NCBI RefSeq assembly: GCF_003018115.1
Contig: NZ_CP027458.1
Length of the DNA: 64,000 nt
Direction: 5' to 3' (one strand)
Source: Escherichia coli
GTDB taxonomy: Bacteria > Pseudomonadota > Gammaproteobacteria > Enterobacterales > Enterobacteriaceae
Shown here: piece after piece, positions 12,001 through 15,000 of the stretch
Layout: every line of letters begins with the position of its first letter
Numbering within the stretch: the stretch's first letter is position 1
Made by a program: the position numbers

Positions 12001-15000
12001 TTCCCCGGTGTTTTTTTTCTTCCCGGCAACAAGAAGCGTGTACGACGCGGTGTTAACGTGGATATTTCGGGTACTCATCCTGCTTTCTCCTCTCTCTGGT
12101 TTTCAGCCCCCATCATCGGTTGAGTTTCGGGAGCCGCCGCAGGCCACAGCGCGACAAGGGTGGCGCGACCGTTCCGGTCGCTGCAAACCCGGGGCAGAGC
12201 ATCTTTCGCTTAATTTCCTGCCCCTGATTATCATTAACAAATCAACAACATGGTCATAGGCTGACCGGCCTGTTGGCTGAAAAGCATCATCAGTGCACTC
12301 AAATCACTGGCTTTTTTTCTGATAACTGGCGTGTGATTTTCCACGCTATCCAACAGTTCCCCCAGTTCATCATTGATTTGCCATAACTGTTTCAATAGCG
12401 TTTCCGCATCCAGGCTGCTCTGGTATGCAAGATTTGCCTGAACAGCACGATTCTGCATGATGTCGATTTGTGCGATTGCGTCTTTCTGCTGATCGCCTGT
12501 TGGCTGATAAGTGGTGTTAAAAGAAAATGCGCTCATGTTTCATTCTCCTGTGTCTGATGTTTTCAGCCCCCATCATCTGTTGAGTTTCGGGAGCCGCGGT
12601 TTTGACGTTTTGCGGGGACCTGCTCTTTGTTCCCTCCGGTATTCACCATCACCTGTTTGAGAACCTTCGCCGCATGGGGCATCACTGCCACGGCCTGACG
12701 CACCTGTCCTGGGCAGAACGCAAAATTTTTTACCGGGTTTTGGGTAAAAAATTTTGTGGGCTGTTCATTTACCCTGGACAGTCAGTGCGGCAGGTTGTGG
12801 CTGTCTATGCCCCCGGCGACAGGGGCTTAAACAGGTGAATGGCACCGGACAGAACAATGGGCAGGGACCCGCCGCAACGACGTGAAGCGCGGTTTGCGAA
12901 ACGGCGTTGCCCCTTACATCCCGGCTGCCTTTTGCCGGGATGCCGGGAGCGCAGGCCACGGCGCGACAGAGGCGGCGCGACCGGAACGGTCGCTGCAAGC
13001 CCGGGGTTTCGCGTCAGGGATGGAAGCCCGCCAGGGCGGAGACAGCTCCGCTGGCTCCGTTCACGACAGCCCGCCCCGCCAGGGGGACGCCCGGAAAAGG
13101 CATAAGCAGGAGAACAACAAAACAGACAATAATCAGGGCAGCAGTAACAGTAATCAGAACAGGAGGAAAAAGAGAATAATCAAAGGGAAGGTGATGTGAT
13201 TTCTGACAGGTCATAAACAGAGAAGGCGGGGGAAAAGAACGGGCGCCGCAGGCGCACGTTCATTCCCGTTCCCTGAGGGAAACCGCCTTCCTGGCAGTCT
13301 GGTTGTTCACGCTGCTACAATGTCAGCAAGGAGAAAGGGGCCACCGGCGAACCAGCAGCCCCTTTATAAAGGCGCTTCAGTGCAGTCAGACCAGCATCAG
13401 CCCTGAAAAGGCGGGCCTGCGCCCGCCTCCAGGTTGCTACTTACCGCCGGATTCGTAAGCCATTGTTGCCGTAACTTCCCTGTATCCGTCCTTCAGCCGG
13501 ACTTCGCACAGGCGATTCCGGGTCAGGAGTGTGAATATCAACAACGTGCAGCACACGATTAATACGCACCAGATAAGGGCGTTTCCCGGTAGTTTCATGG
13601 CCTTCTTCTCCTTGCGCAAAGCGCGGTAAGAGGCTATCCTGATGTTGTCTAAGCATGCAGGGGCCTCGTGGGTTAATGAAAAATTAACTACGGGGCTTTT
13701 GTCCTTCTGCCACACAACACGGTAACAAACCACCTTCACGTCATGAGGCAGAAAGCCTCAAGCGCCGGGCACATCATAGCCCATATACCAGCACGCTGAC
13801 CACACTCACTTTCCCTGAAAATAATCCGGTCGTTCAGCCAGTTCACGGGCAATCAGTTCATCCGCAAACAGTGGTGCATGCCTGTTGATACGTTTCTCCA
13901 GATTCCGCCGCCGTACCGCAGCCTTACGTTCTTCGCTCCAGCGGCGCACCGGGCGGTCAGAAATAAAATCCAGACAGACCGCATACCCTGCTCCGGCAAC
14001 CCAGCGTGACATAACGGATGCCGGTGCAGGCTGCCCCGCCTCCACCACTTATGAAACCAGTTCATGCTCGCCAGGACAGGGATAAGGCAGTTTCCAGCGC
14101 AGTGAGTAACGCCACTTCACGCCGCCTCCCGGAGTTTGTTCGGCACCATCCACCGCTCCATCTCACGGACAGCGTGACCCGCCTCCCTTGCTGCCATACC
14201 TGCCTCTGCGATGACCTGCCAGAATGGCATATCCTGCCACTGCCAGCGTTCCATTCCGGCCAGTGACGGAAAACGCTCACCCCACTGCCAGAACAGGGTT
14301 TCCAGGTCATGCTCTGCCACCCGGTCACTCCAGCGTGCATACCAGCTTCCGACTGTTTCCGGCGAATGGAATGCCAGTTCGATTTCAGCCTGAGCGACCA
14401 GCGCCTGGTACGCACGGGCTTTCTGCTCTGCCTCCCTCGCCTGCTGGCGGCTGTACTTCTGCATGACCAGCGCGGATTTATGGCGACTGCGTTCCCTGAC
14501 ACGAAACCGCACCGACGGGAACAAGCGTTCTGCTGCATCGCCTGGAAGGGGAAGGAGGCAGACCTCGCCCTGTGTTTCAATCAGCACATCGATGGCATAC
14601 AGCCACTGAAGACGGTTGCCGTGCAGTTCTTCTGCGGTCAGGGACGGCATGAAAAATCGCAGGTCAGACAGCGATATCCTGCGGCTTCCGTTCAGACAGC
14701 GGAAAAACGCCCCCGCATACGGATATTCAGCCAGCGTGTTACCCTGATGGCGGCGTTTTTCGGTCTCCGCCACCGCCCGCCATGCGGCCTGTTGCTCTGT
14801 GCTGAGAGGAACCAGTGCCTGTGAACGTGCGCTCATGCCTGACCTCCTTCCGCCATCAGGATATGGATGATGTCACTGACGCTGTACCCCTGCGCGTCCA
14901 GTGACGCCGCCAGTGCCAGTGAATGGCTGACGGCTTCCGGTGCAAACCGCCGCTGTACCTGAACCACCGCAAACGGCTCACCACCGGCATTCACCAGAAC

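What the first reader, a model, noticed from the sequence alone, without database searches (positions are those of the whole stretch)
12234..12536. Unassigned 100-aa gene as the first product of the oriT-proximal single-strand promoter
Its start codon abuts the promoter-proximal end of Frpo copy A, the same arrangement as ssb with copy B, so it is predicted to be among the earliest proteins made in a transconjugant. I cannot assign a family.
Basis: inference. Interest (0 to 1): 0.5.

Follow-up and report, generated by a model that had tools for sequence, protein, structure and literature searches.

The report
Uncharacterised YeiA gene behind single-strand promoter
The 100-codon gene is real: it belongs to the uncharacterised plasmid family YeiA, and it sits first behind the single-strand promoter nearest the transfer origin of an F-like E. 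coli plasmid, so it is probably made within minutes of plasmid entry, but its job is still unknown.

Summary
Window 12234-12536 (-) is a genuine protein-coding gene. It has an AGGAG ribosome-binding site 8 nt upstream of the ATG, dN/dS of 0.1-0.4 across alleles and paralogs, and a confident three-helix-bundle model. Its ATG lies 7 nt from the end of the Frpo repeat, as ssb does at copy B.

The gene can be named but not explained. It is the YeiA family: R100 carries a 70%-identical homologue in the same slot. Samuel et al. (Nature 2024) list it as uncharacterised leading-region family 48.

No Pfam, NCBIfam, PADLOC, PDB or fold match gives a function.

F itself lacks yeiA: there Frpo1 drives ygeA-ygeB. 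R100-type plasmids have Frpo-yeiA-ygeB. This plasmid has both genes in tandem, and the second Frpo has lost its 351-nt hairpin, so yeiA is the first cistron of a yeiA-ygeA-ygeB operon.

The most likely role is a small acidic protein made transiently from incoming single-stranded DNA, acting by binding another protein during establishment. This is inferred, not shown.

It is a sound experimental lead, but it is a member of an already catalogued kind.

The parts
12234..12536 (-). yeiA-family gene, 100 aa (WP_024213649.1): an acidic protein predicted to be a three-helix bundle, and the first cistron behind Frpo copy A.
   Evidence: ORF; RefSeq annotation. It is 70% identical to R100 WP_001272251.1. 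dN/dS is 0.1-0.4. AF2 mean pLDDT is 81.6, with helices at 14-41, 44-64 and 70-89. pI is 4.46 and net charge -5.4.
12545..12549 (-). Shine-Dalgarno AGGAG, 8 nt upstream of the ATG.
   Evidence: Read directly from the sequence. An equivalent AGGAGG/GGAG stands before the homologues in R100, L005 and L011.
12544..13010 (+). Frpo copy A, a class-1 single-strand promoter homologous to F Frpo1/ssp1a. The core hairpin spans about 12604-12881 on the T-strand, with its apex near 12740.
   Evidence: Repeats D1 and D2; fold z = -9.9; 86% identity to F Frpo1; conserved structure with 15 compensated pairs.
12559..12597 (+). A 39-nt conserved leader segment that forms a small hairpin (CGGCTCCCG...TGGGGGCTG in mRNA sense). 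It lies between the promoter hairpin and the ribosome-binding site, and also occurs before ygeA and ssb.
   Evidence: Three exact or near-exact copies in the window, 0 expected by chance. The leader is invariant in four Frpo elements.
12099..12194 (+). Collapsed second Frpo between yeiA and ygeA. The 351-nt promoter hairpin is deleted; only the flank and leader remain.
   Evidence: D3 and D2 are contiguous here but about 350 nt apart in the full copies. Alignment to L015, which has the intact tandem, shows a clean 351-nt gap. No large hairpin is left (z = -1.8).
11791..12078 (-). ygeA (95 aa), carrying the same protein accession as F YgeA; second cistron.
   Evidence: WP_000107542.1 appears in both F and the window's twin plasmid. 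There is no similarity to YeiA.
10851..11672 (-). ygeB (DUF932, 273 aa); third cistron.
   Evidence: Annotation. It is 96-97% identical in F, R100 and the other plasmids regardless of the upstream gene.
18177..18640 (+). Frpo copy B (homologue of F Frpo2), used as the comparator.
   Evidence: Repeats D1-D3.
17637..18170 (-). Plasmid ssb, the first gene behind copy B.
   Evidence: Annotation transferred from NZ_CP027581.
9946..9962 (+). nic-like oriT sequence GTAGTGTGTGGTGCTTT on the T-strand.
   Evidence: It lies between traM (9249-9632, -) and the transglycosylase (SLT) gene.

Best explanation
The gene is a yeiA-family leading-region gene of an F-like (IncFIA/FIB, MOBF) plasmid.

How it is expressed: the + strand is transferred 5'->3' from oriT. 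About 3 kb after nic, Frpo copy A enters and folds into a roughly 280-400-nt hairpin that host RNA polymerase uses as a promoter. Transcription runs back toward oriT through yeiA, ygeA and ygeB. In this plasmid the second Frpo has lost its hairpin, so the three genes form one operon with yeiA as first cistron. Expression should start before complementary-strand synthesis and stop once the promoter becomes double-stranded.

What it makes: the product is an 11-kDa acidic cytoplasmic three-helix bundle with a disordered N-terminal 13 residues. The most conserved patch is the loop and helix start E-x-H-T-P-V-I-R-K-K-A (residues 66-76). It has no enzymatic or DNA-binding signature. It therefore most likely acts stoichiometrically, binding and modulating another protein of the recipient (a defence or DNA-processing factor) during establishment.

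Shown here: gene reality, family, position, strand, promoter homology and structure, and operon anatomy. Inferred: early transient expression (from F Frpo1 data) and a protein-binding, establishment or anti-defence role (from size, charge, fold, context and patchy allelic distribution).
For: Coding and conservation.

Promoter. In-vivo function of the homologous F Frpo1 on its downstream genes comes from PMC9849209 and PMC12672017.

The link between Frpo and the gene holds in diverged homologues. P0110 (43% identity, locus L005) and P0106 (58%, L011) both sit directly behind a Frpo-like hairpin with the same leader.

Family and context: the family is enriched in leading regions, lies on the T-strand-template orientation and has median position 2 (Samuel 2024 supplementary table). 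The gene stands in the same slot in R100 and in thousands of IncF plasmids.

Protein properties: small acidic helical protein, with no hit to any enzyme or DNA-binding family.

Operon: anatomy; no intrinsic terminator with a T-run between yeiA and ygeA.
Against: No expression or phenotype data exist for any YeiA.

F conjugates well without the gene, so it is not essential.

Samuel et al. found no sequence or Foldseek match to known anti-CRISPR or anti-restriction proteins.

Many database entries are truncated or frameshifted, and the C-terminal tail of this allele comes from a deletion.

I could not place -35/-10 boxes by consensus, so the transcription start is not mapped here.

Three-helix bundles are generic, so the fold says little about function.
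Confidence: 0.55

Rival explanations
1. YeiA is a dedicated partner or modulator of the DUF932 protein YgeB, filling the role that YgeA has in F. The Frpo1 operon would then be a two-component module with interchangeable first components.
For: yeiA lies immediately upstream of the DUF932 gene in R100, pT156A, ETEC1735, pERL03-1416-2 and the diverged L005. yeiA and ygeA occupy the same slot between Frpo and ygeB: 1783 and 3053 plasmid records carry them respectively, and only 70 carry the tandem junction. In F, deleting ygeA is worse than deleting Frpo1 plus ygeAB, and ygeB alone could not be deleted, which suggests interplay within the operon (PMC9849209).
Against: YgeB is 96-97% identical whichever gene precedes it, so there is no co-variation. 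YeiA (pI 4.5, all-helical) and YgeA (pI 9.7) are unrelated and chemically opposite. P0106 and the paralogues P0126, P0133, P0128 and P0116 are not next to DUF932. In the window, ygeA intervenes.
Confidence: 0.2
2. yeiA is a dispensable or decaying passenger. The ORF is carried and shuffled by recombination between Frpo repeats and has no current function in establishment.
For: The gene is absent from F. Truncated and frameshifted copies are frequent. The 5' third is almost identical at the DNA level between alleles, as expected for a recombination anchor. The C-terminal tail is variable. Whole [Frpo-yeiA] modules are duplicated or lost.
Against: Purifying selection shows in every comparison, down to 33-43% amino-acid identity. 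The fold prediction is confident. Full-length copies exist in more than 1700 plasmids of several genera. The ribosome-binding site and promoter linkage are conserved in diverged homologues.
Confidence: 0.1
3. YeiA is a small transcription regulator or nucleic-acid-binding protein, for example one that tunes Frpo transcription or host genes.
For: A single weak PHROG hit to a 'transcriptional regulator' family (phrog_17318, E = 0.0019). A conserved basic R-K-K patch at residues 73-75.
Against: The PHROG hit is not reproduced by other family members: it reappears only in P0006 at E = 0.071 and is absent from the other seven members tested. There is no helix-turn-helix or other DNA-binding domain in Pfam or NCBIfam. 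The protein is acidic overall.
Confidence: 0.05

Closest known systems
YeiA of plasmid R100 (WP_001272251.1; UniProt 'YeiA protein' A0A2Z5VJG3), which is uncharacterised leading-region family 48 of Samuel et al., Nature 2024
   Same: It is a homologue over the full length (70% identity). It sits in the same slot behind the oriT-proximal Frpo, in the same orientation, with the same predicted fold (TM 0.77-0.79 to the AFDB model).
   Different: The window allele diverges in the C-terminal two-thirds (66% nt identity there against 97.5% in the first 120 nt). A 30-nt deletion has removed the R100-type stop, giving 100 aa with the tail MLLIC. It is followed by ygeA rather than directly by the DUF932 gene.
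ygeA-ygeB operon of plasmid F under Frpo1/ssp1a (Masai and Arai 1997; Couturier et al. 2023)
   Same: The promoter is the same (86% identity), as are the position relative to oriT, hok/sok and the transglycosylase (SLT) gene. The window carries the same ygeA and ygeB genes. This is the operon shown in F to be expressed from ssDNA and to matter for conjugation efficiency.
   Different: F has no yeiA. Here yeiA is inserted as a new first cistron, and the F-type Frpo in front of ygeA has lost its hairpin.
Small leading-region anti-defence or establishment proteins (PsiB, ArdA, KlcA/ArdB, anti-CRISPRs)
   Same: It is likewise small, acidic and non-enzymatic, encoded on the T-strand-template orientation in an Frpo-driven leading region, and patchily distributed with several alleles and paralogues.
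   Different: It has no sequence or structural similarity to any of them, and no activity has been shown.

Membership tests
YeiA family (R100 yeiA; Samuel et al. family 48) | Full-length sequence homology to R100 YeiA | tested here: met
   tblastn gives 70.4% identity over residues 1-98, E = 6e-39. R100 carries WP_001272251.1 at the same locus. The top AFDB50 hit is 'YeiA protein', 72% identity.
YeiA family (R100 yeiA; Samuel et al. family 48) | Leading-region location close to oriT, on the strand transcribed from the T-strand | tested here: met
   The gene is about 2.3-2.6 kb from the nic-like site and on the - strand, while the T-strand is +. The family's median position is 2 and its strand is 1.
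Class-1 ssDNA-promoter (Frpo/ssi) driven, zygotically induced leading genes | An Frpo homologue that forms a long hairpin on the T-strand directly upstream of the gene | tested here: met
   86% identity to F Frpo1; fold z = -9.9; covariation in 15 pairs; ATG 7 nt from the repeat end.
Class-1 ssDNA-promoter (Frpo/ssi) driven, zygotically induced leading genes | Expression in transconjugants before ss-to-ds conversion, dependent on the Frpo, and absent in donors | not testable with these tools
   This is known only for F genes (ygeA, ssb, yfjA, yfjB, psiB): PMC9849209 and PMC12672017. No data exist for any yeiA.
Class-1 ssDNA-promoter (Frpo/ssi) driven, zygotically induced leading genes | Recognisable -35/-10 elements reconstituted in the stem, and a mapped start site upstream of the gene | tested here: inconclusive
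   Consensus scans found no convincing pair. The best was TAAACA-19-AACAAT, 8 of 12 matches, on the arm that would act as the non-template strand.
Known anti-defence families (ArdA, ArdB/KlcA, PsiB, anti-CRISPR) and defence-system components | Sequence or structural similarity to a characterised member | tested here: not met
   No hits in Pfam, NCBIfam or PADLOC. Foldseek against PDB and BFVD gives nothing better than E = 0.4. In Samuel et al., DIAMOND and Foldseek against anti-CRISPR and anti-restriction sets returned 'NA' for all 1062 members.
YgeA (F orf95) | Sequence homology | tested here: not met
   BLASTP finds no alignment at E <= 100. pI is 4.5 against 9.7.
Phage transcriptional regulators (phrog_17318) | A reproducible profile match across family members | tested here: not met
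   E = 0.0019 for the window protein only. The hit weakens to E = 0.071 in P0006 and is absent from the other seven members tested.

The most novel reading that the evidence does not exclude
YeiA is a new establishment or anti-defence factor that occupies the first position of the one ssDNA-promoter operon shown to matter for conjugation efficiency in F. It would be an alternative to YgeA in that slot. If so, the roughly 1,800 sequenced YeiA-carrying plasmids, R100 and many E. coli and Klebsiella F-like plasmids among them, use a different first-minute protein from F, targeting a host factor not yet identified.
Probability: 0.3. Interest if true: 0.6.

Novelty: new member of a known kind. Interest (0 to 1): 0.35.

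Why it matters
Leading-region genes expressed from single-stranded DNA decide whether a resistance plasmid establishes in a new host, and most of them have no known function. In F, the Frpo1 operon is the one whose loss lowers conjugation efficiency. In R100-type and many other IncF plasmids its first gene is yeiA, not ygeA. Knowing what YeiA binds would fill a gap in the first-minutes programme of a very common plasmid group. The natural variants (yeiA only, ygeA only, or both with one or two promoters) give ready-made genetic comparisons.

Tried and rejected
Family and fold searches that found nothing:
- Pfam, on the single protein and on 11 family members, gave only noise.
- NCBIfam and PADLOC gave no hit.
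- A PDB sequence-profile search gave nothing below E = 2.7.
- Foldseek against PDB and BFVD returned only generic helical bundles at E >= 0.4.
- tblastn against phage genomes found no match.
- An exhaustive HMM search of 1.84 billion representative proteins found only Enterobacteriaceae plasmid relatives. One further hit, a 2628-aa repeat protein (P0118), is a compositional false positive.

Hits tested and rejected:
- The phrog_17318 'transcriptional regulator' hit is not reproducible.
- YeiA and YgeA share no homology.
- YgeB does not co-vary with its upstream gene.

Other checks:
- The ORF inside the Frpo hairpin (12563-12703), which would compete for 'first product', is broken in diverged Frpo elements. 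RefSeq annotates it as a pseudogene artefact.
- A consensus search for -35/-10 in the hairpin was inconclusive.
- The region upstream of the Rep_3-plasmid paralogue P0128 is not an Frpo.
- An attempt to count uncollapsed against collapsed tandem arrangements in PLSDB failed, because the tool joins non-collinear pieces.
- Literature searches for yeiA, WP_001272251 and DUF932 with conjugation found no functional study.

Full report
**Setting.** The window is the tra-proximal part of an F-like conjugative plasmid. Segment 11700-13300 is 100% identical to plasmids of E. coli 2013C-4282 and 05-3629 (IncFIA/FIB, MOBF).

From low to high coordinates the order is:
- traM (9249-9632, -)
- a nic-like oriT sequence on the + strand (9946-9962)
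- the transglycosylase (SLT) gene (+)
- DUF932/ygeB (10851-11672, -)
- ygeA (11791-12078, -; same protein accession as F YgeA)
- the target ORF (12234-12536, -)
- Frpo copy A
- hok/sok (sok found by Rfam at 13596-13767)
- psiA, psiB, a ParB-like gene and DUF905
- ssb (17637-18170, -)
- Frpo copy B

The + strand is therefore the transferred strand and the template for all these minus-strand genes.

**Observation.** Repeat D1 (300 nt, 97% identical) ends at 12544 and at 18177. The ATGs of the target and of ssb start 7 nt and 6 nt beyond these ends. An AGGAG lies 8 nt before the target ATG.

Copy A folds on the T-strand into a long hairpin (-147 kcal/mol, z = -9.9). It is 86% identical to F Frpo1. 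Across four diverged Frpo elements the hairpin is kept, with 15 pairs changed on both sides.

**Is it a gene?** Yes.
- Between the window and R100 alleles, the diverged 52 codons have pS 0.63 against pN 0.26 (dN/dS 0.23).
- Across seven family genes down to 33% amino-acid identity, dN/dS is 0.09-0.44 with synonymous sites saturated.
- tblastn finds the family in 1783 of 72,556 plasmid records (Escherichia, Klebsiella, Shigella, Salmonella and others).
- megablast with the gene matches 889 of 5426 complete E. coli genomes, almost always on plasmids. Only 167 cover at least 80% of it; the rest match mainly the shared first ~129 nt.
- AlphaFold2 on a 12-sequence alignment gives a three-helix bundle (helices 14-41, 44-64 and 70-89) with mean pLDDT 81.6 and a disordered N-terminus.
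- The protein is acidic (pI 4.46, net charge -5.4).

The only ORF lying between promoter and gene sits inside the hairpin arm (12563-12703). It is interrupted in diverged Frpo elements, so the target is the first credible product.

**What family?** There is no Pfam, NCBIfam, PADLOC or solved-structure relative. Foldseek against PDB and viral models gives only generic helical bundles. A weak PHROG 'transcriptional regulator' hit is not reproduced by relatives.

The gene does have a name. The best AFDB50 match is 'YeiA protein', and R100 carries the 98-aa homologue WP_001272251.1 in exactly this slot. Samuel et al. (Nature 2024) list it in their supplementary table as family 48. That entry records 1062 members, FDR p = 0 for leading-region enrichment, median ORF position 2 from oriT and T-strand-template orientation. 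It is labelled 'Uncharacterized', with no match to anti-CRISPR or anti-restriction sets. I found no paper on its function.

Exhaustive searches reach only enterobacterial plasmid relatives. These include more distant paralogues in other leading-region operons, next to a 112-aa gene plus an MqsA-like antitoxin, and on Rep_3 plasmids.

**Anatomy and history.** Aligning the window with F and an R100-type plasmid shows three layouts:
- F has Frpo1 -> ygeA -> ygeB and no yeiA.
- R100-type plasmids have Frpo -> yeiA -> ygeB and no ygeA.
- The window has Frpo -> yeiA -> [96-nt Frpo remnant] -> ygeA -> ygeB.

Contig L015 carries the intact intermediate, with a complete F-type Frpo between yeiA and ygeA. 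Relative to it, the window lacks exactly 351 nt, the whole promoter hairpin. What remains has no large hairpin (z = -1.8), and there is no T-run terminator after yeiA. In this plasmid, yeiA, ygeA and ygeB therefore most likely form one operon fed only by Frpo A.

In PLSDB, YeiA occurs in 1783 records and YgeA in 3053. Only 70 records carry the tandem junction. The two unrelated genes are thus mostly alternative occupants of one slot.

The first 120 nt of yeiA are 97.5% identical between alleles, whereas the rest is 66% identical (one search shows the same boundary near nt 129). This pattern fits recombination anchored in the Frpo and the 5' end of the gene. The 100-aa length results from a 30-nt deletion that removes the R100-type stop codon.

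**Promoter linkage beyond close relatives.** The diverged homologues P0110 (43% identity, L005) and P0106 (58%, L011) again sit directly behind an Frpo-like hairpin. Both have the same leader...CGTCAAAACCGCGGCTC..GAAACTCAAC.G.TGATGGGGGCTGAAAAC, followed by a ribosome-binding site and ATG. This supports a functional coupling of the core YeiA clade to class-1 single-strand promoters.

**Mechanism.** The expression model is inferred from experimental work on F. [quoted passage not shown] Loss of Frpo1 lowers conjugation efficiency to about 25%, and loss of ygeA lowers it to about 4% (PMC9849209). RNA-seq and 5'RACE confirm class-1 promoters in F and pESBL (PMC12672017). By homology, YeiA should appear within minutes of entry.

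For its action I commit to a stoichiometric protein-binding role during establishment, either anti-defence or modulation of host DNA processing. The grounds are that it is small, acidic, helical and non-enzymatic, varies allelically, is patchily distributed, and sits in an anti-defence-rich region. I hold this part with only about one-third confidence.

The main rival is a dedicated partnership with the DUF932 protein YgeB. Adjacency in most plasmids favours it. Against it, YgeB stays 96-97% identical whichever gene precedes it, and some homologues have different neighbours.

**Verdict.** The gene belongs to an already catalogued, still uncharacterised leading-region family. This analysis adds the cassette-like yeiA/ygeA alternation and the collapsed second promoter. 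It is a reasonable experimental target of moderate interest, not a new kind of system.

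Noticed in passing
window 12099-12194: An Frpo remnant lies between yeiA and ygeA. 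Relative to contig L015 (an intact tandem Frpo-yeiA-Frpo-ygeA), exactly 351 nt, the whole promoter hairpin, are missing. The flanking small hairpin and the 39-nt leader are kept.
   Followed up: yes
window 12408-12536 (5' third of the gene): The first ~120-129 nt of yeiA are 96-97.5% identical between window-type and R100-type alleles, while the rest is about 66% identical. The gene is a mosaic whose conserved part is continuous with the Frpo, as expected for a recombination anchor.
   Followed up: partly
window 12563-12703 (-), and 18196-18336 (-): An ORF inside the Frpo hairpin arm is annotated in some RefSeq records as a 68-aa hypothetical protein or as a 'frameshifted SSB' pseudogene. It is interrupted in diverged Frpo elements, so it is probably an annotation artefact.
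   Followed up: yes
window 13014-13214 (-) and 18647-18832 (-): A small hydrophobic ORF (61-66 aa, membrane-like) is repeated just upstream of both Frpo copies, so the repeat unit extends beyond the promoter hairpin. It has no NCBIfam match.
   Followed up: partly
L019 (NZ_CP032813.1) 1629-3797: Plasmid pERL03-1416-2 carries two identical [Frpo-yeiA] modules in tandem, showing that the module duplicates as a unit.
   Followed up: no
L013/L014 6001-7009; L015/L016; L017/L018: Distant YeiA paralogues (33-50% identity) lie in other operons. In F-like leading regions they sit beside a 112-aa gene plus an MqsA-like antitoxin. On Rep_3 plasmids they sit near a DnaJ-domain gene. L013-L016 carry such a paralogue and a core yeiA copy together.
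   Followed up: partly
window 12559-12597, 12099-12137, 18192-18230: A 39-nt leader is conserved in front of yeiA, ygeA and ssb. In mRNA sense it forms a small hairpin (CGGCTCCCG...TGGGGGCTG) just before the ribosome-binding site, and it is invariant in four diverged Frpo elements. Its role (5' UTR stabiliser, or part of the start region) is unknown.
   Followed up: partly
window 9946-9962 (+): A nic-like oriT sequence GTAGTGTGTGGTGCTTT (2 mismatches to the F nic region) lies on the strand predicted to be transferred.
   Followed up: no
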